From NCBI RefSeq assembly GCF_000002075.1, contig NW_004797687.1:379490-433545 (forward strand): 54,056 nt of DNA, given 5' to 3'. Both the position numbers and the translations under genes were made by a program. The DNA is from Aplysia californica (Eukaryota). Shown here piece after piece: positions 29,210-54,056 of this stretch (its first letter is position 1; the number at the start of each line of letters is the position of its first letter). The notes beneath the pieces are model-generated. The model saw nothing but the letters and a program-made list of their open reading frames with translations. It was not told where the DNA came from and searched no databases.

Positions 29210-29908
29210 CATCGATCATCATCCATGCCTTTCACCCCTGGCAGGGTATATATAGGCCACATACAAGCTCCTTCCATTTATCTCTGTCCTGGGCCATCCT
29301 TCCAAGCTTGTTCCAAGTGAGCTTCATCTCTCTAATGTCCCTTTCCATGCCTCTCCTCCATGTTTCCCCTGGCCTACCCCTGCCTCATGCTCCCTGTGGG
29401 TTCCACTCAATGACTGTCTTGTGATGATTCCTCTGGGCTTTCTTAAGGTGTGTTTTATCCATCACCACTTTCTTTGTCCTATTTCAACTTAGATCTTTTG
29501 TCCTGTCCTTTCCCACGGCTCTTTATTTCTTATTCTATCCTGTCACATAATTTTTAGAATTATAGAATACTCCTCATACATGATCTGTTGATGAAAATCT
29601 GGACTTTATTCAGTACTGTCTTCCAATTTTCACAGCTGTAGAGGAGCACAGACTTGACGTTGGAGATAATGAGTCAAATCTTGGTGTGCAGTGAGATGTT
29701 GGTCGCTTTCCAGACTTAACATTTGCCTCGGTTAAACCTTCACCATCGAAGACACTTCCAAGGTAGGTAAAGGAGTTCACTTCTTCCAGAGGAGTGTCTT
29801 CCACTGCCACAGCAGGGCTTGAAACTTTTCCTAGCTTCACTACTTTTGACTTGCCTGGATGTATATGTAGGCCAACATTCCTTGATAAGCTGTTGAGTTC
29901 CTTGGCTT
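29210..29908 (-). mobile_element. 5'-truncated RTE LINE with 14-bp TSD
   Basis: CTGTAAACTATCAT at 29196-29209 and 29909-29922; (atc)n tail at the left end; RTE peptide LEEVNSFTYLGS. Confidence 0.88.
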
Positions 29909-29929
29909 CTGTAAACTATCATTATTATA

Positions 29930-30902
29930 GATATCTGCATGTGCAAAGCACATTTGATCTCATACGTAAAATCTTTTGTGTGTTCTTTAATTTGTGGCTC
30001 TGTGGGCCGTTACTCCAATTAAATGACACACTACAAACTTCACACATGTAGTAAGACTTTCATCCTGTGTGTGTTCTTTTGTCTGTCAAAGCCGCCACTC
30101 TCTACAAACATTTCACCACAAACTTTACACTTTTACAAGTTGTTAAGTTTTTCTCAGGTATATGTATCATTCTGTACCTCTGTAGGCTGCTACTCCAAGT
30201 AAACCTACATCACAAACTCTACAAGTAGTATTGGGTTTTTCTACACTGTGTTTCTTTTATGTGTGNNNNNNNNNNNNNNNNNNNNNNNNNNNNNNNNNNN
30301 NNNNNNNNNNNNNNNNNNNNNNNNNNNNNNNNNNNNNNNNNNNNNNNNNNNNNNNNNNNNNNNNNAGTAGTATTGGGTTTTTCTACACTGTGTTTCTTTT
30401 ATGTGTGTAGGTGGCACTTGTGACTCCTCAAGTTACTGTTTTGTGTAAACTTTCACACACAAAATGTGTAAATCTTTTACCACAAACTTCACCCTTGTAA
30501 AGTGTTTCCCGTATTGTGTGTTCTTGTATTTACCCGTAACTTAGGCTTCCATTTCCATTATCTGTAAAGCTTTCTCCACAAACTTCATGCTTGTCACTTT
30601 CAAGTTTTCCTCCTGTGTATACTTTTTTAAAAGATAAGATAGATAAGACTTCATTATCCAAGAGGGAAATTTTAAAGTATCATCTTTGTACCAATAGAGA
30701 CAACTTCTTGTAATTCATGTTTCACCATAAACTCCACACGTGTCAGGTTTTGCTCCTTTGTGTGTTATTTTGTACCAGTACAGGTAACTTCTTGTAAATT
30801 TACATGTTTCACTTTAAATAAACTCCATACTTGTCAGGTCTTGGGTAGTTTTTTACCACCAAGTATGTTACCACTTTGGGAAAAATCCTTTCACCACAAA
30901 CT
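29930..30902 (-). pseudogene. Decayed zinc-finger repeats downstream of the intact ZNF
   Basis: Finger-codon motifs continue past the stop in a shifted frame ([15 protein letters not shown]). Confidence 0.75.
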
Positions 30903-33743
30903 TCACACTTGCAAGGTTTTTCTCCAGTGTTTTCTCGTCATATGTTCTACTCGGTGAGAAGCTCTTGTAAATCTTTTGCCACAAATTTCACACTGGTATG
31001 GTTTTTCTCCTGTGTGTGTTATTTTATGTCTTACTAGACTTCCACTTCTACTAAACGTTTTACCACAAATTTCGCACTTGAAAGGTTTTTCTCCTGTGTG
31101 TATTCTTTTATGCACTAAAAGGCCACTACTATGTGCAAACCTTTTACCACAAACTTCACAATTGTAAGGCTTTTCTCCTGTGTGTGTTCGTACGTGACTC
31201 TTCAAGTCACTGGCAAATAAAAACATTTTGCCACAAGCTTCACACTTGTAACCCCTTTCTCCTGTGTGTACTCTTCTTTTATGTTTCTGTAGGCAGCTAC
31301 TTTCCCTAAATGCTCTTCTACAAATTTCACATTTGTAGGGTTTTTCTCCTGTGTGAATTTTTTTGTGACTCTTCAAGGTCGAGAGATGTGAAAATGCTCC
31401 ACCACAAACTTCACACTTGTAAGGTTTTTCTTTTGTGTGTGTCCTTTTATGAACCTGTAGGCAACGACGTGTTACAAACCTTTTATCACAAACTTCACAC
31501 TTCCAAGGTTTTTCTTCCGTGTGTGTTGTCTTATGTATTAGCAGGCCACAACTGTGTGTAAACCTTTTACCACAAACTTCACACTTGTAAGGCTTTTCTC
31601 CCGTGTGTAATCTTTGGTGACTCTTCAGGACACTGGGTTGTGTAAACTTTTCACCACAAACTTCACACTTGTAAGGCCTTTCTCCTGTGTGTGCTCTTTG
31701 GTGACTCTTCAAAACACAGGCTAGTGTAAACATTGCGCCACAAACTTCACACTTAAAGCGCCTTCCTCTAACGTGTACTTTCATGTGTCTCTGCAGGACA
31801 CCCATCTGTTCAAATGTCGCACCACAAAATTCGCATTTGTAAGATTTTTTTTCCAAGTGTGTTCTTTTGTGTCTGTGAAGATTGTCACTCTCTGCAAATG
31901 TTGCACCACAAAGTTCACATTTGTGAGGTTTTTCATTGGTGTGTGCTTTTTTCAAGTGTCTGTGAAGGCTATCAATCTCTGCAAAAGTCGCACCACAATT
32001 TTCACATTGAGGTTTTTCTCCACTGTGTGTTAATTTATGTCTCAGTAGGCTATCACTTTTTGTAAACCTTTCACCACAAACTTCACACAAGTAAGGTTTT
32101 TCTTCTGTATATGTTCTTTTATGTTTCAGTAGATTACCTCTTTTTGTAAACTTTTCACCAACTTCACACTGCTTTTCCCTTGTGTGTCTTCTTTGGTGAC
32201 TCTTCAAGACACTCGCTTTTGTAAACATTACCCCACAAACTTCACACTTGTAGGGCTTTCCTCTTACGTGAGCTTTCATGTGTCTCTGCAGAACACCCAT
32301 TTGTGCAAAAGTAGCACCACAAACTTCACACTTGTAAACCTTTTTACCTGGGGGTGCCTTATGTCCCAGTAGGGTTTCACTTTTCGTAAATTTTTCACCA
32401 CAAACTTCACTCTCGTAAGGTTTTTCTCCTCTGTGTGCTCTTTGGTGACTCTTTAAGACACTGATTCGAGTAAACATAACACCACAAATTTCACACTCGT
32501 AAGACTTTTCTCCAGTGTGTATTTTTCTATGTCTCCGCATGGCACCCGTCTGTGCAAATGTCGCACCACAAAATTCACTGTCAGATTTTTCTCCCATGTG
32601 TGTTCTTTTATGTCTCTGAAGGCTGTCACTCTTTGCAAATGTTGCACCACAAACTTCACACTTGTACAGCTTTTTTCCAGTGTGTATTTCTTTATGTCTC
32701 AGTAGGTTATCACTTTGTGTAAACTGTTCACCACAAACTTTACACTGGAGAGGTGTTTCTTCTGAGTAAGTATTTTCCCTAACTGTAAGCCTGGGATTAT
32801 CTGAATGACCAGAATCTGTTTCTTTGTACACTTTTGGCTGTGTGGTACTAGAAGGAGACTCAGAAAAATTTACAGAACCAGAAATAGACACAGCACAAGA
32901 AAAGTTGAAACCTGAATCTTTATTCTTGACCCTAAAGCCAGAATTTGAGACATTACATTCCAGAAGAATTGGATCAGCAGAGAAAGTTGAAGTTTGGTGA
33001 GTGGATGCAACAACATCTGTGTCTGGGTTGGAACTCTGCGCCATAGACAAACCCCTTTCAGTGGAGATTTGCTGCTGTAGCCTTCCAGCCTGACTCATGT
33101 GATCCTCAACGAACATGGGCTCCTCCACATCTCCCACTTGTCCTTCTGTCTTTCCCATCTCTCCAAAGTCTGGACCCTCCCATTCAGGCACTTCCTCTTT
33201 CCCAAAAGTCTCCACTTTTGGTTTCACTTCATCATCAATGTCAGGAAAATATTCAAAATGTGGTTCAGTTTTTACCATACCAATATCTGTGAAGCACTCT
33301 GGTTTCATGACTATGACAGGTTTTATCTCTTCCTCCTCCCCAAACAAATAAATAGGCTCATCTTTTACTGCGAAACTTCCGTTTTCAATGTCTGGTTCGT
33401 TTTTTCCCTCGACTTTGACATCATACGGCCATTCAAAACCAGACTCTTCTTTTATCAATGGAAGATGGACGTCTTTTACTTTTACAACAGGTTTTTGTTC
33501 TTTGAGGTCAAACAAGAACAGAGAACTGCTCCTATCTTCAGAGTAATTTTCTCCACTTGTAATGTCATGTTTCACATCTTCCCTTAGAGCATGAGAACTA
33601 GAACTAGAATTACTTGGTGCACCTTGAAAAACGATGCCATCAATGCTCAGATTCATGCCTTCTCCAGAAAAAAGACTATTCACAGTGTCTTCCTCGAAAT
33701 TGACATTCATCATTTGTTTTTCAGAGTTGGAAATGTCAGCCAT
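30903..33743 (-). CDS. Tandem C2H2 (Kruppel-type) zinc-finger protein, 946 aa, 22 finger units (~19 canonical), ~330-aa acidic N-terminus
   Basis: Uninterrupted ORF, AAAATGG start context, repeated CxxC...HxxxH with TGEKP linkers; upstream exons cannot be excluded. Confidence 0.93.
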   Translation of the reverse strand: MADISNSEKQMMNVNFEEDTVNSLFSGEGMNLSIDGIVFQGAPSNSSSSSHALREDVKHDITSGENYSEDRSSSLFLFDLKEQKPVVKVKDVHLPLIKEESGFEWPYDVKVEGKNEPDIENGSFAVKDEPIYLFGEEEEIKPVIVMKPECFTDIGMVKTEPHFEYFPDIDDEVKPKVETFGKEEVPEWEGPDFGEMGKTEGQVGDVEEPMFVEDHMSQAGRLQQQISTERGLSMAQSSNPDTDVVASTHQTSTFSADPILLECNVSNSGFRVKNKDSGFNFSCAVSISGSVNFSESPSSTTQPKVYKETDSGHSDNPRLTVRENTYSEETPLQCKVCGEQFTQSDNLLRHKEIHTGKKLYKCEVCGATFAKSDSLQRHKRTHMGEKSDSEFCGATFAQTGAMRRHRKIHTGEKSYECEICGVMFTRISVLKSHQRAHRGEKPYESEVCGEKFTKSETLLGHKAPPGKKVYKCEVCGATFAQMGVLQRHMKAHVRGKPYKCEVCGVMFTKASVLKSHQRRHTREKQCEVGEKFTKRGNLLKHKRTYTEEKPYLCEVCGERFTKSDSLLRHKLTHSGEKPQCENCGATFAEIDSLHRHLKKAHTNEKPHKCELCGATFAESDNLHRHKRTHLEKKSYKCEFCGATFEQMGVLQRHMKVHVRGRRFKCEVCGAMFTLACVLKSHQRAHTGERPYKCEVCGEKFTQPSVLKSHQRLHTGEKPYKCEVCGKRFTHSCGLLIHKTTHTEEKPWKCEVCDKRFVTRRCLQVHKRTHTKEKPYKCEVCGGAFSHLSTLKSHKKIHTGEKPYKCEICRRAFRESSCLQKHKRRVHTGERGYKCEACGKMFLFASDLKSHVRTHTGEKPYNCEVCGKRFAHSSGLLVHKRIHTGEKPFKCEICGKTFSRSGSLVRHKITHTGEKPYQCEICGKRFTRASHRVEHMTRKHWRKTLQV

Positions 33744-36700
33744 TTTTATTAATTACAATGTTGACACTACCTTTGAATTTGAAGACAGCTAGATATCTAG
33801 ATCTAGATCTAGATCGCTCTCAACTGTGAATGTCCAAAAGGAAACAACCTTAAATTAGGCCTACTTTCTTAAATTTTGCAAAACTGCCGCCTACTGAATC
33901 AACGACTACCATTGGTCAATTCAGAGTTTAAGGACGTTATTCACAAATTCCACAAGCTTGTAGATCTACAACAATTTAAATTTAAGTCCTAGATCTAGCC
34001 TCTAGACTCTCACTAGATCTAGACCGAGGATTCTAGGCCCGACTAGATCCAGATCTAGATTAGTTTGGCACTGTCACCTCAGTGAAAGTTTAGCTTTATG
34101 GGATCTTAGTGACCCTTCTCTACTTCTACACTGCACCAAATTGAAAGTAAAATTATATATATATCTATGATGGCAAGTTGAGACTGAGTCCTTTACCAGT
34201 TTTTCCAGGTTTTAACACACTAGATCTAGATCTAGACATTTATTATATCTAGAGATCTAGATCTAGATATCTAGATCTATCAGATCACAAACTGCCCCCC
34301 AAGTGTCCCGGTATTAATTACTTGGAACAATTACAAAATTATTATTGATTGAATCATAATCAAACATCAGCACACATGAACTCCTCCAAACTCTCCAAAC
34401 TTTGCACAGTAATATTCTGATCAGCAAATAAACATTTCAATGAGGATAAACCGACAAAATATTCATTTCGTGCTCCAAATTGGACAGTGCAGAATGTAGT
34501 ATGAGGATAGAGATCACCCATTGATTTTGTAAACAAAGAACTGATGAGCCGCATCGATCAAACAAGTGTGACGTGTGAAATGTGAAGAGCATAGATCTAC
34601 CACAGTTTTAGCAGTTAGCTTTGTAATAGACCGGAGAAATAAGAGCTCCCAACTTACGTGTTTATCCAATTTCGCACATAATATTTTAATTTACAGTGAC
34701 AATTAATAGCTTTTACTTGCGTGAACTCCACGCAATACGATGCTAGTCAAGTGTTGCAAAATACCTTTTCTATTATCATTGTTTGTTAAAAAGGAAATTT
34801 GGAGTTGAAAGTTTATTATATAAGCAAGAAGTAAGCATTCAGTATACATTTCTAAATAGGAATAAGTGCCTATTTGCATTGCGATGCCGATCGAGTTGCG
34901 ATTAGCTTCAGTGCTAAATGAAATGCCACATTGCGTTTAGCGCCAGTGCTAAATAAAACGCTGTGTGTTATATATAAGGATTTATCTACGCTTCGTTGTT
35001 GGGAGTTCTGATAGCCGAATTAATGGAAGAAAGATGGGTAGCCCTAAAAAATTGTAACAAAAATGAAACTTATAATATATGGTTCGACAAATAAAATTGC
35101 GAGTACAATAACATATTATATTTTAAAAAATCGGCTTTCGAAATCGTAGAGGAAATTGTTTTAAAAAGCTTTAAAAGATGTCCAAAAAAAGCAAAATTTA
35201 TATTACGACCAATGGTTTATCATATAGATCTACTTGCTTATTGACACGAGAATGTTTTCATAATTTGTACGGATTTTTCCGAAAATTATGTAATTGTCAT
35301 CGGTATCAGAGCTTTTTATGTAAAAGTATGGGAAGCCAATGTATTAAGAATTCGTTTTCTCATATCCTCAGCCGGAGCTTTTAATTTTCAGTGGATGTTT
35401 GTTTACTGTGTAATTTCCCTCTAAAGAATTTCCCCTTGTGCAATTGACACAACAAGGTGTGAATGGTATAGGGCACCGAGTGCACATTTCGTATCACCGA
35501 TCTTAAATAAGTGCAACATCTTTTTGCAAAACATAGAAAGACTTAGAGTCAGTCCAGGAAGCTTAACAGGCTGAAACGCAAACTTCGATTAAGTCTCCAA
35601 GAGTTCCTATTTAGCTCCCACTGATTGTTTTATGGTCTGAAAAGAAAACTTTGCAGTCAAGCAAAGTCATAGAGACCTATAATGTCATTCGCGTTTGAGC
35701 CGAGAGCCAAGTACGTCAGGACTCAATAAAGAGAGTTGTTTTTTTTCTTGGTTGTTTTTATGTGACTTCAAAATTGCCAAGAAGCCACCATGTTCTGTTA
35801 CATTAGAAGTTGAATCTTTAAAAAAAAAAAGACATCATTGAGACCTCAAGATGTTTTGCCGTTCATTATCGTGTATCCTGTCTGAAGGCAAATTAATTTG
35901 AGCAGATCAATATTCGGAATCTGATTACCATTTTGAAAGACCATCTGCATGTTGAAGGGCCACAGTACATATATTATGGACCACAGTACCCGAAAAAGAA
36001 AAACTGATGGGATGCAAGAAAAAGTACGGAATATTACATGTGAATTATAATTAATTAATATACGGAATCACACACAATGGGCCTGCCAGTGTCAGTAACA
36101 TGTAGGCTACATGATGTATTCGGTTTTGATGGAAACACGCTCTCACATAACGCATTTATTATTTTTTTAAATTAAAAGGTAGGAGCACCATCAAATTAAA
36201 TTATATTGACATTACGATAAACACAAAAAATAGAAAACATACCGGTATCAGAACAGTAACAAAAAAAAAAGAAAATAACCCACCAGCAAATTAAAACACA
36301 ACAAAGAGAGAAAAATAAAACAGCCATATATATATAAATAATATGTTATGTTGTACAAGACTTTTTTTCACATGAAAATAACAAATGAACGTGGGGTCAA
36401 CAAGTACATGTAAGAAAGAGAAGAAGTGAAATGGGGGTGAAAATAAACCTTCTTTCTAAAAGTAAGTAAAGAAGTTCAGTTTCTTTTTTTTTTTTCGTTT
36501 TTTTTAAACCCCGTTTTTTTTTTCGATTTTAATGCAAAAAATAGCGGCCGCGATTCGCGGACCAAAAAATGACAAAATCGCGGCCGCGACAAACGCAGAT
36601 GCTATGAGAGATATTGGCCAAAAATCGACATTAGGGTCAAATTTGTAGAGCTTCTATTTGTGCCATAGATTCTTTTACATGGTATTTGTGAACGGTTCCT

Positions 36701-36964
36701 CTTTCGTCAACCGACTGTCGGGGGTTCCATCGACTCTCGGCTCGGGCTCTTTTCTTTCCCGAGAAACAATTTTTTTATTTTTTTTTTTTTTTTGGGGGGG
36801 GGGGGGGGGGTGGGGCCGCAAGTGTTTTACGGTGCTCGCAAAACTGGCTTAGAGCTAGATCTAATTGTATACATGATGTGATGTGTACCACATCATGACA
36901 TGGGCGCGCTGGACGCATTAAACGTGGTTTCAGTCGACAATTTTTGTTGTTGAAATTTGCCCTG

Positions 36965-37330
36965 GTGGCGGCCGAAGCCTTCTACTTCTACGATTTTAGA
37001 CCAAGGGATCGCGCCCGAGACCTCAGAAATTTTCCGTCCTTGTCCGAGAAGGCTAAGTGTGGAGATTAGAGATCTTTCCTACTACATACTACTGCCAGAA
37101 GATCGGAGGGGTATGTAGCTGAAAGACAGCAGCAAGGAGCCAAGGAGATGCAGTAGAAAGGCTGCAGAAAGAGCCGGGGGGCGAAGTGGAGACGAAAGCA
37201 GACATTACAATAGCAGTACTAGAGGTGAAAGGAGACAATATTAATTTTAGAACAATGTTATTTTAGGTCGCTACCCGGATTCAAAACCTGGGACCTTTGA
37301 AATAGAGGTGAACACATCACGAATATGAAC
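36965..37330 (-). mobile_element. Truncated SINE of the 10121 family, present only in the left arm
   Basis: Reverse complement has decayed B box ggttttgaatcc, pyrimidine body and ctcggacaaggacg...gaggtc core; absent at the mirror sites ~15423 and ~47749. Confidence 0.75.
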
Positions 37331-37547
37331 TGACGGGCAGCCATGGCTATGGAAGTCGGTCACTGGCCATGTAGTAAACTGTCTGTGAAGTATAATTAAC
37401 TTAAGATCAGGAAATGGAAAAGACTAGGAAAGGTTTCAGGGCAGATAAAGAAAGGTAGATCGCGTACTAGTATAGAGCAGCATTAAGATGATCAAGAAAT
37501 GGTTTCAACTTGGATCGAAGATACAACCCATCTGGACGAATGGGGGT

Positions 37548-37563
37548 GGTCCTGAAAAGGACC
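37548..37563 (-). terminator. Histone mRNA 3' stem-loop
   Basis: Reverse complement GGTCCTTTTCAGGACC. Confidence 0.97.
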
Positions 37564-37600
37564 GTATTGTGAGGTTGCTGGATGTGGGAAAACCAGCTGC

Positions 37601-38176
37601 TTACTTCTTGGCAGCAGCCTTCTTGGGCTTGGCAGCAGCCTTCTTTGCCGCTGGCTTTTTGGCAGCAGCCTTGGGCTTGGCGGCTTTCTTGGCAGGGCTC
37701 TTGGTCTTCTTGGGTTTGGCAGCGGCTTTTTTGGCAGCAGGTTTCTTGGCGGCGGCCTTCTTGGGAGATTTTGGCTTCTTGGCAGCGGCTTTCTTGGGCT
37801 TGGCCGCCTTCTTGGGGGACTTGGGTTTCTTGGCAACTTTCTTGGCGGGTTTTTTCTCCACTTTCTTCTCTCCCAAACGGAAAGAGCCGGCAGCGCCAGT
37901 TCCCTTAGCTTGCTTCAGGGTTCCAGACTTGACGCCGGCCTTGAGGGCAGTCTTGAGACGAGCGTTGATGGCAGTGGGGTTATCACCGACCTTGTAGTTG
38001 GCCATGATGTACTTGAGGATGGCCTGGCGGGAAGAGCCACCGCGCTCCTTCAGTGCAGAGATGGCGGCAGCGACCATCACCTTGTACTGAGGGTGAGCGG
38101 CGGGGGCTTTAGGCTTGGCGGGAGCCTTCTTCTTGGGGGTAGCCTTGGCTGGGGCAGCAGCTGGAGCGTCAGACAT
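37601..38176 (-). CDS. H1: Histone H1, 191 aa
   Basis: Intact ORF; differs from the 14579 copy at two residues (VKSG, KKTKS). Confidence 0.98.
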
Positions 38177-38255
38177 TGTGAGTGAAAATGTGAACGAAGA
38201 CGAGGGCGGAAAATGAAAAAAGAGAGTGGTCACTTCGCAACGAGTGCTGATTCTG

Positions 38256-38544
38256 AACTGACAGATCACGGCGAGCGCTTGCTATATGACCATTTCGCGC
38301 GGACGTCCGAGAGAGCACCTACGTCACGATATTTTTTTTTTGCTGCGCCGATGTCGTCTATTTCGTTCGGCTGTGCGAATCTGTGCAAGAACATGTAGAT
38401 CTCCGAGCTACAACTTAATGCAGTTAACTGAATGTTTCGTTCGTAGTCATTCAAGGCTAGATAAATGGTTAACCAAGAAATTGTTACCCCTTTTTATGCA
38501 AATTGTGTAGTGTGCGGTGCAAAAATCAAATTTTTCTATCGATA
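38256..38544 (-). promoter_or_regulatory. Histone H1 promoter
   Basis: E2F TTTCGCGC 38293-38300, ATGCAAAT ~38497, TATCGATA 38537-38544, Inr and TATA-like motifs conserved. Confidence 0.7.
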
Positions 38545-40814
38545 AAACATGCGCTCGCTGTCACATCGACATCACTTGAAATTAAAATGCATGCGTTTAC
38601 GAGATGTACATCGCTCCTATTTTCCCTTCTCAAGATAGAAAACTTATTTTTGCTGATGTTCTCAGAGAATTTGTGTCTTTGCATTTTGTAGAAATGTTGT
38701 TTTTCTATTGTTTTGCCACGTGTCGCAGCACACTTCTTACGGCGTCGTCAAATTACAACCGTGGAAATTGGACAATTTCACAAAGATCATTGATAGAAAA
38801 CATTCGTTTATTTTGAATATTGTAAGTTTTAATGGTGGGCTTGCGTGGTACGTTATCATTCTTTCACAAAACCCAAAATGTCGGTAAATATTAAGCTTTT
38901 TACGAGAGCTAGCTCGTCGACAATCACTCGCCGTCAGTCAAAAATGGCCGCGATGGAGGCTGTCCGCGTCACTCCTTTCTTTCAACGTTTCAATAGATTT
39001 AACACTATCAAGTCACTCTTCCCACCTTAAGATCAAGTTCACTTTGTCAGAAAAAGTGTAAAGATAAAGACTATCTTAAGAGAAGAGAGATATCATAAAG
39101 ACCAAACAAAAAAATGAGTCAAATACCACAGTCAAATTGGGGTAATTCTCTTTCAAACAAACTGGGACCGACCGCTTTCCCGATAAAAAATCCCAAATGT
39201 AGAGAATGTTACGGTCAAAGCTAGAAATGTAGGTCTGTTGCTTAATGGGGGAAAAATTGGAATCTCTTTGCTTCACAACACTGCTGCAGAGACTTGACTC
39301 TATCTTCTAAACGGTTGAAATAATTAAGCCAACTCTTGTCTTTCACAAATGGTCTATAAATAGCCCTTGGGTTCCCAATTTTGTCGTCTCTGCATTCCTT
39401 CAACGTGTTTTTATTTATTTGTTTTTCTAGCTCAGATTTGGAAAGGGGTACTATTTTGTCTTACTGCTATTGTTGAATATCCTTCTTTTTTTCTTTCTTT
39501 TTTTGCTGCCCGGTTTATTATATTATTATTTTTTATACTTGCTTTGGGATTTGTTTCACAAACAAAGCTTTATTCAACTAGCGCTATTTTTGCAAAAGAA
39601 AAAAACAACGAAAGGGACCTCAAAACAAGTGACCAATCAAACTCTAGTGCCGTTTTTATTCTCCTTTTTGCGCGTAAATATTTGCCATAGACTTAGATCA
39701 GTCTATATAGTTCATATCTTTATTCAGGCGGCTGTCTTCATATTTTGGTCGTGCATGATCGATGATCAATGAAAGATTTGAACGGGAACAATTCTTATAT
39801 TTCTTTGGCATCGATACAGACACTCAGACACTATTATTTTATTTAATTTTGACCACTAAATAAAATCTAGCTAATTTATTACGGTTAACTATGCCCAAGA
39901 AACTTAACGCGTAGCTTTTTTGCAGGCCAGCAACCAAACAAAAATGTAATACTACAGCATTTGTCTTTGGGTTTTTTTCATTGAAATATCTTGATGTAAT
40001 AATAATTAAAACAAAAAATCCTCTGTCTAGGCTCACATTGCTTTTTTGGTGAATACAGAGGATTAGCATGGGTGGTTGGCGGGTGCTCTGGTGTGGTTTG
40101 TTCCTTCTTTCCTATCAAACACCTATCGTATCTCTCCTTATTCTTCTTTTTTTTATGGTAGTTACTCTTAACACCTCTAATAATTATCTTCTGGCGCTCA
40201 TATGACCTTACGCAGCTGCAAGCGCCGTAAAACCTTTACTNNNNNNNNNNNNNNNNNNNNNNNNNNNNNNNNNNNNNNNNNNNNNNNNNNNNNNNNNNNN
40301 NNNNNNNNNNNNNNNNNNNNNNNNNNNNNNNNNNNNNNNNNNNNNNNNNNNNNNNNNNNNNNNNNNNNNNNNNNNNNNNNNNNNNNNNNNNNNNNNNNNN
40401 NNNNNNNNNNNNNNNNNNNNNNNNNNNNNNNNNNNNNNNNNNGCTATCTCTCACGTCAAGTGTAGCCTATCTCTTTGTAGTACATTACTACTCGGACTAT
40501 TTTAGCTCACCATTAAAAATCTAAGGGTTTAGGACTCAAAGTCCTCCATTTCGGATATTAATTAAAAGTTTTAAGGAACAGACTCCCGTGCAGTCGTGTA
40601 AGATTGGTTTTTACCACATAGTGTAATGCATAGAGCTGGAGTTATTCGCCTAAATCGAGAGCGCTGTCGGATCTGTCTCTCTGTCTTCATAATTATTGTA
40701 TTTCTTGTAGTGCCCACATTAACTATACCTAAGTGTGGGGTCATCCCATCACACGTTCTGGTGACGTCATAGTTTTTGAAAAAATAACCTTGCTGATGAT
40801 TACAAAACAAGAAG

Positions 40815-43219: not shown

Positions 43220-43276
<57 letters not shown>

Positions 43277-43871
43277 ACAAAACTGGCGCCTCTCGCTGTT
43301 ACTGTAAACACTCTCATGGTATCATCTTCAATCTTTGCTGCTTTTAAATGTGACCTATAAGATTTGCTTTGCAGGGACCATAAAACTTCCACTGGAGTTA
43401 AAATGAAAGAATTATAATATGTAGATCAAACATAAAAGACGTTCATAATCACCAATGAACAGTATGCCTAACATTCTAAGCGCTTTCATTTTATTGCCAC
43501 AGAAATTGCCCGTTTTGTATTTTCTAATACAAAAGACCTTTTCTGAGTTGCTCCAGGACATGGCTGATGCAACGACAGTCCTTGTTTGACAAGTTCACAT
43601 TTGAGCATAGATTCGGCGTCCAGTTGATCAAACATATTTCATCCCAAATTTGGTGCAGATCTGCGCAGAATTGGAGAAGTTAGATCTATTAATTGTTTCC
43701 TCGAGGTCATTGAGTCTGGGACAGTAGTTATATTATAACATACATATATATATAGATATTTCACACACACAAAAAAATGACATTGAATGTTTTTTCAACA
43801 GCAGAAACACTTGGAGCATGCCCGTGGCTCAATTTCTCTGATATTGAATTAAGCCCACGCATGCATTTATA

Positions 43872-44725
43872 CAGTGGAGTCCACTTATAACGAGTCCTGA
43901 AACAACGATAAATCTGTTATAAAGACGCTATTCTAAAACCCCGTTTTTTCCCCTTCTTTATCTTTGTGAATAAAATACTGCTATAGCGCAACCAGACAAA
44001 CACGGGAGTCGGTTATAGCGGAATATTGCTGCTGCTGTGCACAGCGCATAGGCCATTTATACATAATGTAACACCTCGCCAGTTGAGAAACTTGTTGGTG
44101 ATCTAGCGCAACCTAGAACCTTACATCAACTCCTTGAGCGAAACAAAGAATGGGAGAGCCCACGTTTGCTAACAATGAAGGTCAGAGCAATGAGTGGGGA
44201 GGGTGTGGTATGCGCAGACAAGCAGAACGCATTGCGTGATAGGCCAGCCTAGTCTAAATTTTCTACCCAGGCCCTCACTTCTCCGATGCGGGGATGCAGA
44301 GGTCACAATGCTGTGATGGATGGAGTGAATGGGTATGCAACGTGCGCAAGCAGACGAAACTCACCACAGGGTATGGTGGGGTGGGGGGCAACCAAGGAGT
44401 TTAGAACTTACTTTTAATCTCCTTGGGGACAACACAGCGGGCGAGTTAGCCCAGAGCGCATTCTTTCTGATCGCCAACGCCGTGCTGTCAACATCGCTAG
44501 CGCTAGGGAAAGAAACCCGATTCGATTTTTGATCAAGTAAGACCAAGAGGTCATGTTGAACAATGTCATCATCAGGGGAGATAACAAAAAGAAATAAACA
44601 GAACACTAAACTCGTAGATTAGACCTACTTTATTATTTCCATTTATTACTGGATTCCCTATAACGAGAATCCTGGTATAACTTTTGCACCGGTCACCTCC
44701 CTCTCGTTATAACAGGATTCCACTG
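43872..44725. mobile_element. Complete pogo/Tigger-like MITE, 854 bp
   Basis: TA|CAGTGGAGTCCACTTATAACGAG ... CTCGTTATAACAGGATTCCACTG|TA. Confidence 0.9.
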
Positions 44726-44727
44726 TA

Positions 44728-44793: not shown

Positions 44794-44797
<4 letters not shown>

Positions 44798-46514
44798 TAT
44801 TTTTAGTAAAGGTTTTACGGCGCTCGCAGCTGCGTAAGGTCATATGAGCGCCAGAAGATAATTATTAGAGGTGTTAAGAGTAACTACCATAAAAAAAAAG
44901 AAGAATAAGGAGAGATACGATAGGCGTTTGATAGGAAAGAAGGAATAAACCACACCAGAGCACCCGCCAACCACCCATGCTAATCCTCTGTATGCACCAA
45001 AAAAGCAATGTGAGCCTAGACAGAGGATTTTTTGTTTTAATTATAATAAATGCATCAAGATATTTCAATGGAAAAAAAAAAGACAAATACTGTAGTATTA
45101 CATTTTTGTTTGGTTGCTGGCCTGCAAAAAAGCTACGCGTTAAGTTTCTTGGGCATAGTTAACCGTAATAAATTAGCTAGATTTTATCTAGTGGTCAAAA
45201 TAAAATAAAATAATAGTGTCTGAGTGTCTGTATCGATGCCAAAGAAATATAAGAATTGTTCCCGTTCAAAATCTTTCATTGATCATCGATCATGCACGAA
45301 CAAAATATGAAGACAGCCGCCTGAATAAAGATATGAACTATAATACTATAATAATAGACTGATGTAAGTCTATGGCAAATATTTACGTGCAAAAAGGAGA
45401 ATAAAAACGGCACTAGAGTTTGATTGGTAACTTATTTTGAGGTCCCTTTCGTTGTTTTTTTCTTTTGCAAAAATAGCGCTAGTTGAATAAAGCTTTGTTT
45501 GTGAAACAAATCCCAAAGCAAGTATAAAAAATAATAATATAATAAACCGGGCAGCAAAAAAAAAAAAAAGAAGGATATTCAACAATAGCAGTAAGACAAA
45601 ATAGTACCCCTTTCCAAATCTGAGCTAGAAAAACAAATAAAATAAAAACACGTCGAAGGAATGCAGAGACGACAAAATTGGGAACCCACCAAGGGCTATT
45701 TATAGACCATTGGTGAAAGACAAGAGTTGGCTTAATTATTTCAACCGTTTAGAAGATAGAGTCAAGTCTCTGCAGCAGTGTTGTGAAGCAAAGAGTTTCC
45801 AATTTTTCCCCCATTAAGCAACAGACCTACATTTCTAGCTTTGACCGTAACATTCTCTACATTTGGGATTTTTTATCGGGAAAGCGGTCGGTCCCAGTTT
45901 GTTTGAAAGAGAATGACCCCAATTTGACTGTGGTATTTGACTCATTTTTTTGTTTGGTCTTTATGATATCTCTCTTCTCTTAAGATAGTCTTTATCTTTA
46001 CACTTTTTCTGACAAAGTGAACTTGATCTTAAGGTGGGAAGAGTGACTTGATAGTGTTAAATCTATTGAAACGTTGAAAGAAAGGAGCGACGCGGACAGC
46101 CTCCATCGCGGCCATTTTTGACTGACGGCGAGTGATTGTCGACGAGCTAGCTCTCGTAAAAAGCTTAATATCTACCGACATTTCGGGTTTTGTGAAAGAA
46201 TGATAACGTACCACGCAAGCCCACCATTAAAACTTACAATATTCAAAATAAACGAATGTTTTCTATCAATGATCTTTGTGAAATTGTCCAATTTCCACGG
46301 TTGTAATTTGACGACGCCGTAAGAAGTGTGCTGCGACACGTGGCAAAACAATAGAAAAACAACATTTCTACAAAATGCAAAGACACAAATTCTCTGAGAA
46401 CATCAGCAAAAATAAGTTTTCTATCTTGAGAAGGGAAAATAGGAGCGATGTACACCTCGTAAACGCATGCATTTTAATTTCAAGTGATGTCGATGTGACA
46501 GCGAGCGCATGTTT

Positions 46515-46815
46515 TATCGATAGAAAAATTTGATTTTTGCACCGCACACTACACAATTTGCATAAAAAGGGGTAACAATTTCTTGGTTAACCATTTATCT
46601 AGCCTTGAATGACTACNNNNNNNNNNNNNNNNNNNNNNNNNNNNNNNNNNNNNNNNNNNNNNNNNNNNNNNNNNNNNNNNNNNNNNNNNNNNNNNNNNNN
46701 NNNNNNNNNNNNNNNNCGACATCGGCGCAGCAAAAAATACACCGTGACGTAGGTGCTCTCTCGGACGTCCGCGCGAAATGGTCATATAGCAAGCGCTCGC
46801 CGTGATCCGTCAGTT
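46515..46815 (+). promoter_or_regulatory. Histone H1 promoter (partly gapped)
   Basis: TATCGATA 46515-46522, ATTTGCAT ~46556, GCGCGAAA 46771-46778, TCAGTT ~46810. Confidence 0.65.
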
Positions 46816-46894
46816 CAGAATCAGCACTCGTTGCGAAGTGACCACTCTCTTTTTTCATTTTCCGCCCTCGTCTTCGTTCACATTTTCACTCACA

Positions 46895-47471
46895 ATGTCT
46901 GACGCTCCAGCTGCTGCCCCAGCCAAGGCTACCCCCCAAGAAGAAGGCTCCCGCCAAGCCTAAAGCCCCCGCCGCTCACCCTCAGTACAAGGTGATGGTC
47001 GCTGCCGCCATCTCTGCACTGAAGGAGCGCGGTGGCTCTTCCCGCCAGGCCATCCTCAAGTACATCATGGCCAACTACAAGGTCGGTGATAACCCCACTG
47101 CCATCAACGCTCGTCTCAAGACTGCCCTCAAGGCCGGCGTCAAGGCTGGAACCCTGAAGCAAGCTAAGGGAACTGGCGCTGCCGGCTCTTTCCGCCTGGG
47201 AGAGAAGAAAGTGGAGAAAAAACCCGCCAAGAAAGTTGCCAAGAAACCCAAGTCCCCCAAGAAGGCGGCCAAGCCCAAGAAAGCCGCTGCCAAGAAGCCA
47301 AAATCTCCCAAGAAGGCCGCCGCCAAGAAACCTGCTGCCAAAAAAGCCGCTGCCAAACCCAAGAAGACCAAGAGCCCTGCCAAGAAAGCCGCCAAGCCCA
47401 AGGCTGCTGCCAAAAAGCCAGCAGCAAAGAAGGCTGCTGCCAAGCCCAAGAAGGCCGCTGCCAAGAAGTAA
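46895..47471 (+). pseudogene. H1: Histone H1 with +1 frameshift (C6 instead of C5 at 46932-46937); real gene if this is a base-call error
   Basis: ATG 46895 to TAA 47471 spans 577 nt against 576 in the intact copies; otherwise intact. Confidence 0.85.
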
Positions 47472-47508
47472 GCAGCTGGTTTTCCCACATCCAGCAACCT
47501 CACAATAC

Positions 47509-47524
47509 GGTCCTTTTCAGGACC
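47509..47524 (+). terminator. Histone mRNA 3' stem-loop
   Basis: GGTCCTTTTCAGGACC. Confidence 0.97.
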
Positions 47525-50217
47525 ACCCCCCATTCGTCCAGATGGGTTGAATCTTCGATCCGAGTTGAAACCATTTCTTGATCATCTTAATGCTGCTCTA
47601 TACTAGTACTAGTACGCGATCTACCTTTCTTTATCTGCCCTGAAACCTTTCCTAGTCTTTTCCATTTCCTGATCTTACGTTAATTATAGGCCTACTTCAC
47701 AGTTTACTACATGGCCAGTGACCGACTTCCATAGCCATGGCTGCCCGTGAGGGCAAATTTAAGAAAAAATAGTCGACTGAAACCACGTTTAATGCGTCCA
47801 GCGCGCTCATGTCATGATGTGGTACACATCACATCATGTATACAGTAGTATAGATCTTGCTCTATGCCAGTTTTGCGAGCACCGTAAAAAACTTGCGCCC
47901 CCCCCCCCCCCCCAAAAAAAAAAGTTTCTCGGGAAAGAAAAGAGACCGAGCCGAGAGTCGATGGAACCCCCGACAGTCGGTTGACGAAAGAGGAACCGTT
48001 CACAATTTCAATTAGATCTAGATCTAGTCGCTTTTGCACAAGTGGGCTGTCCCGACAAATGCTGTTTTGTGAAAGTCAAAGGCGAAGTTATTGCCTCTTG
48101 TTCAGGTTCTTTAAAAGACAAGGAGTTTTCTCTCTACAGACTCTACTATAACTATAACAAAACAAATACAGTGGAACAAACTTATCTGCTTTTAGTTTTT
48201 AAAGAGGTAGCCTACATGTAGTGCAATACTCACCCACTTTTGGTGTAAAGTAGAACAGTACTTTTGGACACCCCCCGAAATCTGGGTTAGCCCGCTTGTC
48301 CTTAAAAAAAAAAGCAATCAAATGTAACAGCAGAGAGGGATCAGCGAAAGGGGGGGGGGGGGGGGGGGCTCCTTACAAAGTTGACCTCAAGCTGTAAAAG
48401 TTTGGAGGGTGGGGGAAAGTGAAGATGTATTTTAGTACATGATGTGTAAAATAAGACCGCATTTCCTTAGCCTTGTTGAATAATGTAATTTGACAGTTCA
48501 GGTACATTATAATGTATGTCTTTAATAAAATTAAGTTTTTATTTTTCTAATAAAAAACAAAGATCACTGTAGATGAAAAGACGGGGGGGGGGGGGGGGGG
48601 GGAAATTACGCTGACGTCATTTGTGATCGCTCTCTTACGTCTCTTACTAGTCTTACGTGTACCCAATATATTTTTTTAATTTACCTAATTTATTTCTCTC
48701 CTACTCCCAGTTCCACACAATAGACCTTGCTTGGTGCATTTTTAACAATCTTTATGCCAAATTGGAAGCTTCTACTTTTCTAGTTCTAGTAAGATTTTTA
48801 CGTGCTTTATTTCAGTTCAACTCTTCAACACTTTCTTCAAACACTTTAGATTATAACGTCATTTTCATTTAGGCATTGTGACCCAAAAGAACAGGAAATA
48901 ATTTTTTTTTTCCCGTACAAAAGACATTTTAAAAGAATTTTATCGAAATGGGATCGCTTACTCAGGTCTTCCCTTAAGTTTTTCCTGGCAACTTCACTTT
49001 AATTAAATTTATTTTTTTAAAAACGTTCTCTTTTTTTTTTTTTAAAGTTTAGATGTTTTTTTTAAATGGCTGAAACCTTAAACCAAAACGAAAAAAAAAA
49101 AAAAAAGCTTTTCATCTAAATAGTCATTACATCGACATGCGACAAATGAGAAATACCGGTAAGTGTAGAATTCTGTGGCCGAAACTCGCAGTGTAAAGAT
49201 TAAGAGGTGGACGATAATACATCATAATACATGTATAGTGTAAAGCGCATAGAGCACGCTTTCGAGTGGGGATGCGCTATACAAAAATGCTGGGTTTTTT
49301 CGTTCTAAAAGTAAAAGTACATGTAGTAGTAGTAAATGAATCGGCAATCATTTGCTGGTCAGCCATTGGCTTTGACTTTGATTGCCNNNNNNNNNNNNNN
49401 NNNNNNNNNNNNNNNNNNNNNNNNNNNNNNNNNNNNNNNNNNNNNNNNNNNNNNNNNNNNNNNNNNNNNNNNNNNNNNNNNNNNNNNNNNNNNNNNNNNN
49501 NNNNNNNNNNNNNNNNNNNNNNNNNNNNNNNNNNNNNNNNNNNNACACTCTGGTAAAAACTGTACAAGTAGGCCTACCTCATCATGTTTTGTCCCAACGT
49601 GGTTAGCTCTACGTCATTAAAGAAACTAGGTTGTCTTGGATATTTTACAGATTAATAATAGCTCATCTTGGCTATCATTTACTAGTCATTTATGGTTTTC
49701 ATTGACCTTTGGAAGAGAATGAAGAGAAGAAATTAGATCTATGTTCATCCAGTTGAATGTATTGTTACAACTAACTACATGTAGCTATCTATCACTATCA
49801 GGAAATCGATAAATTGTCCCTCAGGACAAGTGACGACAAAAGTACACGAAGCGTGCTGACAAAATGAGTTACTTCTCAGATTCGAGGCCGATGGAAAAGT
49901 AGAAATACATTACGCATAGGTGACGTTTTTACAATTTATAAGTTGTAGGAAATAATAAAAGGCATGTTATACTAAAAGAATCTATGGCATAAATAGAAGC
50001 TCTGCAAATTTGACCCTAATGTCGATTTTTGGCCAATATCTCTCATAGCATCTGCGTTTGTCGCGGCCGCGATTTTGTCAATTTTTGGTCCGCGAATCGC
50101 GGCCGCTATTTTTTGCATTGAAAAAAACCCACACGGCCGGGAAATAAAAAATCGAAACAAAACGGGGTTAAAAAAAACGGAAAAAAAGAAAAGAAACTGA
50201 ACTTCTTTACTTACGAG

Positions 50218-51045
50218 AAGTCTGTTATAAAGACACGATTCTAAAACCCCGCTTTTTTCTCTTCTTTACCTTTGTAAATAAAATACTGCTATAGCGCAGT
50301 CAGACAAACATGCGAGTCGTTTATAGCGGAATATAACTGCTGCTGTGCACAGTGCATGGGCCAATTATACATAAAGTAAAACCTCACCAGTTGAGAAAGT
50401 TGTTGGTGATCTAGCGAAACAAAGAATGGGAGAGCCCATGTGTGCCAACAATGAAGGCCAGAGCGGCTGAGTGGGTAGGATGTGGCATGCGCAAACAAGA
50501 CGAAAGCATCGCGTGATAGGCCAGCGTAAGCCTAGTTTAGATTATCAAGGCCTACCATGCCTCTCACTTTTCCGATGCGGGGATGGAGAGGTCACAGTGC
50601 TGTGACTACTGTGAGTGATGGATTGAGCGAATGTATGACGTGCGCAAGCAGACAGAGGGCACCACAGGGTGGGGTGGGGCGGGGGAAAACCACAGAATTC
50701 TACACTTAAGTGTAGAATTCTGTGGGGAAAACACAGTGGGCGAGTTAGCCCAGAGCCCTTTCTTTCTGATCGCCAACGCCGAGCTGTCAGTTCACATCGC
50801 TAGATTTAGCGCAAGAGAAGGAAACCTTATTCGATTTTTGATCAAGTAAGACCTAGAGGTCATGTTGAAACAAAATCATCATCAGGGGAGATAGCAAAAG
50901 GAAATAAACAGAACTCCAAACTCATAGATTAGGCCTACTTTACAGTTTCCCTTGAATTTATTACTGGATCCCTTATAGCGAGAATCCTGCTATAACGGAC
51001 ATTTTGCTCCGGTCCTCTCCTTCTCGTTATAACAGGATTCCACTG
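50218..51045. mobile_element. pogo/Tigger-like MITE (duplicate of 17797-18603)
   Basis: Right TIR ...GGATTCCACTG|TA. Confidence 0.8.
50691..50724. mobile_element. 34-bp perfect palindrome with 8-bp TSD, probable P-superfamily excision footprint
   Basis: GGGAAAAC|CACAGAATTCTACACTT AAGTGTAGAATTCTGTG|GGGAAAAC. Confidence 0.7.
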
Positions 51046-52026
51046 TATTAGCCTGTGACTGAATCTATTAACAACATAATTTCCAAAGGTTGGGGGTTAA
51101 CAAAAACCGTGAATATATTTTATATAATATAGAAATTTGGCCCTTGTTGCTAGATCAAAATTTAAATGTTCTTCTTCTAATTCTGGGTCCCCATGGTTTT
51201 ATGCACCCCGCATAATTTAAATAGGATCGTTTTTTGCATAATTTCTGAATATTTTCCTTTATCATTCTTTGCTAAAATTAACACAATCGCATAATTTCAC
51301 ATTTTTGGGCTCAGTTTGCATAATTTCATAATTATTTTTTGTGTGTGCATAAAACCATGGGGACAGATCTATGGATTGAATCAGTTGTACCTCTACATGA
51401 CCTATTTAAGAATAAGTAATGTATAGAGGTCTAGAAGAAGTTTATTTTGTCGCAGTCATACACATGAATGTAGATCGGTCGGAGGGGAGAAGCTGGTTGG
51501 TGGTAAATTTGGATTTTCCAGTCAGTGGGTCAACGGTACATTTCTCAATTTCAGTGTCAAAGTCCATTGCCCGTTCACTATTTGTTTTTTTAGTAAAGTT
51601 TTACGGCGCTCGCATACAATACATAAAAGTCATATGAGCGCCAAGGGGTGGATGTCAACAGAGAAGCCCAAACGGGGAATCAGGCTTACTCTGCGCATAT
51701 CATGATCTCTCTAGCCTCAACAGCACAAGTCTGCTTCGAATATCAAGGCACCTCGGAAAAAGCAGTTCACAAATGAGTGACGAACATACAGAAGAAGTAG
51801 AAAAAAATGACGATAGTAAGGATGAGGAAAGAAAACCATCCACTGTCCTCCCTTCATCATTTCTACAGGGCATGGGTAGTGGCAGTAGTCGATACTCACT
51901 GTCCAATTATCGAGTACTCTATCGAGTACTCTATCGAGTTCTCTATCGACTACGGTTTCGGTAATACAGCAACAAAGGTCAATTTTACCAAACAGTTCAC
52001 TTTTCTCTAATTTTGAGCAACTTAAA

Positions 52027-52083
<57 letters not shown>

Positions 52084-52252
52084 TCACTAGAAACAATTGC
52101 CAGTGGTGCCATTTGAGAATTTGAAGAAGTTCGAACCCTACCACTAGGGCCTACATGTACATAATATGTACCAAGCCAAGAGAAAAGAAATTGAAGGGCA
52201 AATCCCTTGACTTTTATGCGAGAAGGTTCGGTTTGACTAGCACTAACAGTAG

Positions 52253-52303
<51 letters not shown>

Positions 52304-52868
52304 ACACACAAACAAACAAACTTCTTAAAATACAAAAATGACATAAATGTACTATTATATTACATTAAATGAAATAGACACAATGCACATTATTTCAGTT
52401 CAAGAAACTGTTTTTAATCTCTACTAAACTAAATGGTAACAAGCAAAATACATCAGAGTCAGAAGAAATCAACAATACACAATCAGTCATTACTGATTCG
52501 TTTGCTTCAAATATAAAAATTTAAAATACTGTATACCTAATACCTGCATGCACAATTGGTCGCTTTTAAGGACAAGCGGGCTAACCCAGATTTCGGGGGT
52601 TTCCAGAAATTTTGACGTACACAAAAAGTTGGTATTGCCCTACCTATAGGAGAAGTTTAGTTTCATTGGTGTGTATATATCTGTTTGGTTATAAGAGAAA
52701 ATTCTCTTGTCTTTTACAGAAACTGAACAAGGGGCAAAAACTTTACCTTTGTTGATTTTCTCAAAAAAACATTTTTCGGGATAGCCACATTGTGCTTAAA
52801 AGAGACCAATTCTCAATTGAAAAGCTTTTGTGACTGATATAATAATAAATAAAAAATATATTTATATA

Positions 52869-53053
52869 CAGTGGAAACCATATATAACAGGCCCGGTAAT
52901 AACAGGGATCCGGTAATAACAGGGATTTTTAAATCCCCGTTTTTTCCTACTCTTTGCCTCTATTACAAGTTATCGGCAAGAATAGGGCCTCATCGGAGCC
53001 AAATCGGTCATAGCAGGGACAAAAGCTTGTTAACAATGAGTTTTAAAAAAAAG

Positions 53054-53129
<76 letters not shown>

Positions 53130-53417
53130 AAACAGTGATGGAGCAAGCCCACGCAAGCCATGCCACTGCAAGCACACGCAGCGGGTTAAGCAAGAGAGGG
53201 CTGTGGTGTGCTGCAGACTTCAAACAAGCCCTAAGCCTAGCTACACGCAAGCGTAATGTGTCATGCGCAGGCCATGGGAAACTACCCATGAATAAATACA
53301 GCTGGATTAGTCAACAAATGCTTACTTCCCTTGCCTTTCTGATTTAACAGGGATCTGATATAACATGACTTTTTCTCTGGTCCCAACATTCCTGTTATAC
53401 ATATCAGGTTTCCCCTG
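52869..53417. mobile_element. pogo/Tigger-like MITE with internal (GA)n (duplicate of 20436-20999)
   Basis: Same TIRs; (GA)n ~53059-53127. Confidence 0.8.
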
Positions 53418-54056
53418 TAGCCTATATATATGATACAAATTAGAGATAGATATATAATACATTTTATAGTCAGCGAAGGTGACCACATATATATGCAACC
53501 ACATGTCACTATAATATGGATCTTCTAAATAAAGCAGAAAAATGAACAAGAATCAACAGAATACCTTCCCTTGGATTGTCTGTTGACTTATAATATGTAT
53601 TATAATCCACTTCCTTCTTCGTCTCCACTTTCGTTGAAGATGGTAGTCCAAATATTTTTAAAATGTTAGTTGAAAAACTTGGTTCGTGAGATTTTTCGGT
53701 AAGTTATTCAAGTGGAGATGTTAAAAAAGTGGGCTTCCCACCCTGCCACTGCCAGTAAAGACCAACCCAAGCTGAGAGAGACACAACATCCCAGCGGATG
53801 ATTCTCCCCTCAAGAATAGAACTTGGGTCTCTTTCATGCAACAAGAAAACGCCCCACAGCTACACAACAGATCTGTCCCCGTCGTTTTATGCTAGAAAAA
53901 TTCTGAAATTATGCAAACTGAGCCCAAAAATGTGAAATTATGCGATTCTGTTAATTTTAACAAAGAATGATAAAGCAAAATAATCAGAAATTATGCAAAA
54001 AATGATCAAATTTTGCTAAATTAAGCGGGGCGCATAAAACCACGGGGACAAACAGT

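What the first reader, a model, noticed from the sequence alone, without database searches (positions are those of the whole stretch)
29271..54056. Repeated ~29-30 kb unit that couples one tandem-ZNF gene to a pair of stand-alone H1 genes
Seen: the same ZNF, H1 and TE order occurs twice, and no H2A/H2B/H3/H4 appears in 54 kb. Known: H1 genes separated from core-histone clusters ('orphon' H1) are described in bivalves, and ZNF genes expand by tandem duplication. Inference: here the amplified unit contains both, so linker-histone dosage and a fast-evolving DNA-binding protein are copied together. I do not recognise this arrangement as described. The two copies could partly be stacked haplotypes, but three distinct ZNF versions argue for more than one locus.
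Basis: partly seen in the sequence, partly recalled or inferred. Interest (0 to 1): 0.7.

Follow-up and report, generated by a model that had tools for sequence, protein, structure and literature searches.

The report
Linker-histone palindrome caught in zinc-finger duplication
In a sea-hare genome a head-to-head pair of linker-histone (H1) genes sits between repeated zinc-finger genes and was likely copied along as a passenger when those genes recombined unequally, so the link looks incidental, while paired, stand-alone H1 genes recur elsewhere in the genome.

Summary
Partly confirmed. About 25 kb is present twice (non-coding differences 0.2-1.3%), but the period varies from 28 to 32 kb, and only copy B shows the full ZNF plus H1 pair: the window holds three H1 genes, not four. 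The H1 pair is a head-to-head palindrome (2.9-kb arms, 1.5% apart) of intronless stem-loop H1 genes. A third intact ZNF lies just beyond the window with no H1 beside it. ZNF-B has that gene's coding sequence but copy A's promoter, which points to unequal crossover between flanking ZNF paralogues. Contig depths in three runs favour at least two real units, but stacked haplotypes are not excluded. The coupling is unique to this locus: 1 of 15 ZNF-family contigs carries H1, and 1 of 7 stem-loop H1 loci has a ZNF nearby. I read it as a low-copy segmental duplication with passenger H1. More interesting side results: no H1 match shares a contig with a core-histone match, 4 of 7 H1 loci are inverted pairs, and seven H3 genes elsewhere carry K9M.

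The parts
1831..3765 (-). ZNF-A660: older paralogue, 19 canonical C2H2 fingers, N-terminal half absent
   Evidence: 6.5% from B, 6.2% from C
3765..3889 (+). Junction piece: 100% identical to the spacer end of copy B (43749-43873); reads as a ~10.9-kb deletion joining the ZNF to the spacer
   Evidence: not a high-copy repeat (repeat starts near 43865)
4166..5431 (-). ZNF-A390: B/C-like N-terminal half and first fingers; several 1-4 nt indels at its 3' end
5432..6659 (.). ZNF 5' flank of copy A, 0.24% from B, with a ~230-nt insertion
6760..7918 (.). Inner part of the left palindrome arm in copy A; the H1-bearing part is not in the sequence
12519..15427 (.). Right palindrome arm, copy A
14579..15154 (+). 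H1 gene (191 aa), intronless, 3' stem-loop
21792..29585 (.). Two near-identical (0.65%) copies of the 3.9-kb tail on either side of a 100-N run: third tail or overlap of haplotypes
30903..33743 (-). ZNF-B: intact 946-aa single frame, acidic N-terminal region without Pfam match, 19 canonical fingers; C-type coding sequence, A-type promoter
33750..37330 (.). ZNF-B 5' flank and repeat-rich linker to the H1 3' end (3858 nt from H1 stop to ZNF start)
37333..40240 (.). Left palindrome arm, copy B (2.9 kb, 1.5% from right arm)
37601..38176 (-). H1 gene (191 aa), intact, 3' stem-loop
40241..44804 (.). Palindrome spacer (~4.5 kb): interspersed repeats, (CA)n, and a (TA)n tract at the inner end of the right arm
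44805..47748 (.). Right palindrome arm, copy B
46896..47471 (+). H1 gene with one extra C in a C run near codon 12; assembly error or minority allele
   Evidence: not listed in the contigs that bridge the matching arm site
47749..54056 (.). Repeat-rich tail of copy B, leading across an N run to ZNF-C (window-equivalent 57242-60085, L007)

Best explanation
This is a low-copy tandem segmental duplication in which a head-to-head palindrome of two stem-loop H1 genes lies between directly repeated C2H2 zinc-finger genes and was likely copied as a passenger by unequal crossover between those genes. Order of events (inferred): a ZNF with its 3' tail duplicated (~6% divergence); an H1 gene with 2 kb of upstream DNA formed an inverted pair between them; a recent exchange near the ZNF start codon made the hybrid ZNF-B (C-type coding sequence, A-type promoter) and duplicated the block between; a deletion removed the 5' half of the oldest ZNF with its left arm. 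Likely haploid content: 3-4 ZNF, about 5 H1 (2 left, 3 right arms). The genes would work independently: S-phase-type H1 mRNA ending at the stem-loop; a lineage-specific DNA-binding ZNF.
For: Shown: three [tail+ZNF] copies bracket two H1 blocks and ZNF-C has none. ZNF-B vs C differ 1.3-1.7% in coding sequence but in the 5' flank 97 of 98 variable sites group B with A against C. In 39086-40240 about 10 sites split left from right arms in both copies and 1 substitution splits A from B in both arms, so the palindrome predates the A/B split. Contig word depth: left-boundary contig 46.9 / 14.2 / 120.9 in X1 / X5 / X6, arm interior 77-112 / 20-34 / 289-346 (contigs of table 8 between 37671 and 39295), against contigs from other loci caught by repeat ends at 10.8-15.2 (3 of 3) / 4.8-7.0 (2 of 2) / 32-65 (14 of 14 listed); a contig with the letter of other H1 loci stands at 13.5 / 4.4. 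In X6 a right-arm-letter contig at 171 plus the left boundary at 121 sums to the 289 of the shared arm. Coupling is unique.
Against: A-B divergence (0.2-1.3%) equals that of another duplicate flanking a 100-N run on the contig (1.15%), which looks like stacked haplotypes. Copy A is broken by N runs exactly at the ZNF and left arm. The tool warns that contig depth is no copy number; baselines are few, short contigs, 16 joints were not shown, and samples may be pooled. The deletion junction and the ZNF array were not checked against reads. No ZNF expression data. The crossover could instead be gene conversion between older duplicates.
Confidence: 0.6

Rival explanations
1. Copies A and B are two alleles of one locus stacked by the assembler; a haplotype carries one full H1 palindrome (perhaps plus one orphan right arm) between ZNF paralogues.
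For: 0.2-1.3% A-B divergence matches a gap-flanking duplicate elsewhere on the contig (1.15%); 100-N runs at 3890, 6660, 25654, 30266, 46617; 21792-25653 repeats directly after an N run.
Against: Left-boundary depth is about three times that of other-locus contigs in all three runs; X6 right:left depth is 1.4, nearer 3:2 than 2:1; three mutually equidistant B-like N-termini (1.4-1.7%). Even if true, A660, B and C remain separate ZNF loci.
Confidence: 0.28
2. Functional co-amplification: selection favours joint dosage of H1 and the ZNF, for instance to compact chromatin at the ZNF's targets.
For: Both genes are intact in copy B and 3.9 kb apart on one strand; ZNF contact residues change fast (22 of 76 vs 19 of 288 scaffold codons, P=7e-7).
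Against: Copy A's ZNFs are broken; ZNF-C has no H1; 1 of 15 ZNF-family contigs and 1 of 7 H1 loci show the pairing; copy number is only 2-3; H1 has its own stem-loop terminator.
Confidence: 0.07
3. The palindrome is a foldback-type mobile element that carries H1 in its long terminal inverted repeats and landed in the ZNF promoter.
For: Long inverted arms around a repeat-rich spacer; four H1 loci have the same geometry.
Against: Pairs at different loci are different H1 subtypes (14-28% apart in coding DNA) with arms and spacers of unrelated lengths; no frame of 250 aa or more other than the ZNF in the unit; arm homology fades outward rather than ending sharply. Target-site duplications were not tested.
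Confidence: 0.05

Closest known systems
Solitary ('orphon') H1 genes of Mytilus and other bivalves
   Same: H1 genes away from core-histone genes. Seen only as cited titles in the reference lists of PMC12153100 and PMC3256202 and one passage of PMC6210712.
   Different: Here stem-loop without AATAAA (13 of 13), whereas the PMC6210712 passage says mussel orphon H1 carry a polyadenylation signal; here inverted pairs, not H1-only tandem arrays (the latter recalled).
Lineage-specific tandem C2H2-ZNF expansions (KRAB-ZNF, FiNZ-ZNF; PMC10547256, passages read)
   Same: Many fingers in one frame, clustered paralogues, lineage-restricted N-terminal region (5 of 5 hits are Aplysia californica proteins), changes concentrated at base-contacting residues.
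   Different: No known accessory domain; positive selection not shown (pN/pS 1.2 at contact codons); targets unknown.
Tandem segmental duplication by non-allelic homologous recombination (recalled)
   Same: Direct-repeat paralogues flank the duplicated block; hybrid gene at the junction; passenger genes.
   Different: The passenger is an H1 palindrome; copy number not settled.
Gene-bearing palindromes with arm-to-arm conversion (mammalian Y; inverted histone duplications in chicken; both recalled)
   Same: Head-to-head gene copies in long inverted arms; at C871 identity peaks at the gene.
   Different: Arms only 2-3 kb; H1 only; conversion supported at one locus at most.

Membership tests
Replication-dependent histone H1 | Linker-histone globular domain in one intronless frame | tested here: met
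   PF00538 E=9e-30; 191-aa frames
Replication-dependent histone H1 | 3' stem-loop, no polyadenylation signal | tested here: met
   Same 16-nt stem-loop in 13 of 13 genes, AATAAA in 0 of 13 within 150 nt (consensus recalled)
Replication-dependent histone H1 | S-phase-coupled, non-polyadenylated expression | not testable with these tools
   One poly(A) run gave about 3 reads on the coding region
Replication-dependent histone H1 | Vertebrate-type H1 box and CCAAT in the promoter (motifs recalled) | tested here: not met
   0 of 3 window genes; TATA-like site present in 3 of 3
Bivalve-type orphon H1 | Located outside core-histone clusters | tested here: met
   21 H1 matches on 14 contigs, 19 core matches on 10 contigs, none shared; core arrays look incompletely assembled (1 canonical H3 of 8 H3 frames read)
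Bivalve-type orphon H1 | Polyadenylation signal / replication-independent features | tested here: not met
   PMC6210712 passage
Bivalve-type orphon H1 | Phylogenetic affinity to the H1.0/H5 lineage (recalled) | not tested
   No outgroup tree built
Lineage-specific tandem C2H2-ZNF | Five or more tandem fingers | tested here: met
   19 canonical fingers
Lineage-specific tandem C2H2-ZNF | Known accessory repression domain | tested here: not met
   No Pfam match in the 328-aa N-terminal region at E 0.01
Lineage-specific tandem C2H2-ZNF | Positive selection on base-contacting residues | tested here: inconclusive
   Enriched (P=7e-7) but pN 0.149 vs pS 0.094 overall, P=0.07
Lineage-specific tandem C2H2-ZNF | Binds and represses transposons | not tested
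   No motif prediction or binding data
Segmental duplication | Over 1 kb at over 90% identity | tested here: met
Segmental duplication | Copies are non-allelic | tested here: inconclusive
   Supported for A660, B, C; only suggested for A vs B H1 blocks
Palindrome with arm-to-arm conversion | Non-coding identity between arms higher near the gene than age and constraint explain | tested here: inconclusive
   C871: 2.3% in the proximal 400 nt vs 24% distally, while the 4 comparisons between H1 genes on different contigs show 22-27% proximally; C689 shows no such gradient

The most novel reading that the evidence does not exclude
In this sea hare the normal unit of replication-type H1 is a stand-alone head-to-head palindrome kept uniform by arm-to-arm conversion, and at this locus recombination among fast-evolving ZNF paralogues drives heritable H1 dosage variation among animals.
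Probability: 0.22. Interest if true: 0.55.

Novelty: new variant of a known kind. Interest (0 to 1): 0.3.

Why it matters
As a passenger duplication it matters little beyond annotation. If H1 copy number varies with ZNF-driven crossovers, the locus is a natural test of linker-histone dosage tolerance in a neurobiology model. The genome-wide pattern (stem-loop H1 never on a core-histone contig, 4 of 7 loci inverted pairs) adds a gastropod case to the question of how H1 stays co-regulated and uniform outside histone clusters. Five paper searches on H1 arrangement listed no description of it; the library lacks most subscription and older papers, where histone-cluster work largely lies.

Tried and rejected
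Reads over the ZNF array and the deletion junction could not be obtained, so ZNF expression and those junctions stay open. No RNA holder was listed for the stretch, and no raw or long DNA reads were offered. The idea that 3765-3889 is a transposon end was rejected. Pfam found nothing in four repeat-derived frames, so labels such as LINE or MITE are recalled, not tested; the repeats are shown only to be high-copy. Exact look-up did not find ZNF-B, ZNF-C or the copy-A H1 (3 of 6 proteins). The H1 tree (two partial genes left out) supports the C871 and C689 pairs (bootstrap 100) but does not resolve the C417, C779, C268 group (11-64). The stem-loop pattern was mistyped and gave no hits; corrected. 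The 1800-2000 bin of palindrome B is an N-run artefact and was ignored. Earlier scan findings: none. The 'H3K9M' search matched H3K9me and was uninformative. Synteny in related species could not be tested: no related eukaryote genomes are held.

Full report
Setting. The window is G000:C417:379490-433545. The ZNF N-terminal region matches only Aplysia californica proteins (5 of 5 hits among 2166 candidates of 520-1658 aa), and two H1 proteins from other contigs are in the collection under that species, so this is a sea hare. The window has 12 N runs; five are exactly 100 long. Whether each is an assembly gap cannot be told here.

Observation. Window 1-21575 recurs at 29271-54056. Thirteen blocks outside the ZNF frames differ by 0.2-1.3%. 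One short stretch at the ZNF 3' end differs in length (A has about 330 nt more). The offset runs from 28.1 to 32.5 kb. Copy B reads: ZNF-B (minus strand), 3.9 kb, H1 (minus), 8.7 kb between start codons, H1 (plus), tail. Copy A has two ZNF fragments and one H1; the 4.3 kb holding its second H1 is absent where a 100-N run stands. So the pair is seen once. In 254 kb around the window a further intact ZNF-C follows copy B without any H1 within 74 kb, and a 5-6% diverged copy of the tail precedes copy A. The array is tail'-ZNF-H1 block-tail-ZNF-H1 block-tail-ZNF.

The H1 genes. They are 191-aa intronless frames with PF00538 and a 16-nt stem-loop. All 13 H1 3' ends examined genome-wide have it and none has AATAAA within 150 nt. 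The two in copy B lie in 2.9-kb inverted arms 1.5% apart, with weaker inverted homology (86%) further out; a (TA)n tract marks the inner end of the right arm. Where all four arm copies can be compared, about 10 sites separate left from right and one substitution separates A from B in both arms: the palindrome is older than the A/B split. The extra C in the right-hand H1 of copy B is not listed for the contigs of X1 and X6 that bridge the site; contigs drop rare variants, so error and minority allele both remain.

Genome-wide H1. PF00538 gives 21 matches on 14 contigs, PF00125 19 matches on 10 contigs, none shared. Core arrays look incompletely assembled, so linked H1 copies could be missing. 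Of 7 stem-loop H1 loci (a 3.6-kb contig nearly identical to one C689 gene set aside), 4 are head-to-head pairs: this one, C417:515-535 kb (one member lacks its start codon), C871 (2-kb arms, 83%, no N inside) and C689 (2.3-kb arms, 91%). The C871 and C689 pairs are each sisters (bootstrap 100). At C871 the proximal 400 nt upstream differ by 2.3% against 24% distally, while four comparisons between H1 genes on different contigs differ by 22-27% proximally, which suggests conversion. C689 shows no such gradient (6.8-11.2%), and unpaired H1 genes also have coding DNA far more alike than flanks, so conversion is not established.

The ZNF genes. ZNF-B has 19 canonical fingers behind a 330-aa acidic region with no Pfam match. 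The family has 58 DNA matches on 15 contigs (a lower bound); only C417 also has H1 matches. No ZNF frame was found in 19-40 kb around the C871, C689, C779, C268 and C568 H1 genes or near the distal C417 pair. A660 is 6.2-6.5% from B and C; 22 of 76 contact codons differ against 19 of 288 scaffold codons (P=7e-7), mostly in fingers 12-19, but pN/pS at contact codons is 1.2 and pN does not significantly exceed overall pS (P=0.07). This resembles the pattern in PMC10547256 (passages read) without proving selection. B and C differ by 1.3-1.7% in coding DNA, yet upstream of the start codon 97 of 98 variable sites put B with A against C: B is a hybrid, as expected from unequal crossover or conversion between ZNF paralogues. 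A660 breaks at 3765 and continues into sequence identical to the spacer end of copy B up to the edge of a high-copy repeat, which reads as a 10.9-kb deletion leaving a unit with only a right arm. This junction was not checked in reads.

Real or stacked. Against: A-B divergence equals that of another duplicate beside a 100-N run on the contig (1.15%). For: in assembled contigs of three runs from three samples (X1 may be the source) the left-boundary contig has depth 46.9, 14.2 and 120.9, about three times the contigs from other loci (10.8-15.2; 4.8-7.0; 32-65), and arm interiors are five to eight times. One palindrome per haplotype would need other-locus contigs at half or all of the boundary depth; 0 of 3 in X1 reach half, 1 of 2 in X5 comes near it, and in X6 none of 14 is near full depth and 8 of 14 are near a third. 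In X6 right-arm and left-boundary contigs (171, 121) sum to the shared arm (289), close to 3:2. The tool warns that such depth is no copy number, and baselines are few. I put two or more full units at about 0.65-0.7. The poly(A) run gave about 3 reads on H1, which says little for a stem-loop mRNA.

Mechanism. Shown: anatomy, palindrome, hybrid ZNF-B, lone ZNF-C, uniqueness of the pairing. Inferred: crossover between ZNF direct repeats duplicated the block between them; H1 is a passenger; the genes are transcribed separately. At least 11.5 of 19.6 kb of the unit matches sequence elsewhere in the fetched DNA, H1 arms included, as expected of an unselected genomic segment.

Comparison and novelty. 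Solitary H1 genes are in print for mussels (titles in the reference lists of PMC12153100 and PMC3256202; passage in PMC6210712), tandem ZNF expansion in molluscs is in PMC10547256. Searches for H1 inverted pairs or Aplysia H1 organisation listed 2, 2, 0, 1 and 1 papers; the passages read in three of them do not describe this arrangement, and PMC6087739 was seen only as a listing. A search on mollusc ZNF selection listed one paper, seen as listing only; listings led to PMC10547256. No supplements were read. Verdict: a new local variant of known processes; interest 0.3.

Noticed in passing
L044-L045 (G000:C885:30809-36387), L047 (C695:16402-16809), L049 (C2:1904346), L050 (C2100:15125): Seven of 8 histone H3 frames read carry K9M and Q19R (five also R26C), each with an intact frame and stem-loop. 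The C695 copy is otherwise canonical and is in the protein collection as Aplysia californica histone H3; the other six have 21-27 changes. K9M is recalled as a dominant inhibitor of H3K9 methyltransferases. Could be a decaying family; expression untested. A whole-word paper search listed nothing..
   Followed up: partly
L022 (C871:57084-61453), L025-L026 (C689:72400-86944), L015-L017 (C417:515277-534901): Three more head-to-head H1 pairs of different subtypes; C689 has a third, partial H1 copy between the arms.
   Followed up: partly
L010-L011 (window-equivalent 93631-98312 and 100779-105460): 4.7-kb direct duplicate, 1.15% apart, on either side of a 100-N run; likely stacked haplotypes.
   Followed up: no
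L045-L046 (C885:41266-50647): About 9 kb tandem array with a period near 470-490 nt between the variant H3 genes and the canonical H3.
   Followed up: no
L041-L042 (C36:159736-160179): Divergent H1-like frame that starts inside the globular domain and has no stem-loop in 20 kb; may be an intron-containing, replication-independent H1.
   Followed up: no
G000:C282:627994-818633: Cluster of about ten members of the same ZNF family with no H1 match on the contig.
   Followed up: no
window 700-1800 and 29970-30890: Degenerate finger-like repeats continue past the ZNF stop codon; copy A keeps about four more units than B.
   Followed up: partly
window 3990-4165: Short stretch at the end of the A390 piece with no match in the fetched DNA; unexplained.
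   Followed up: partly
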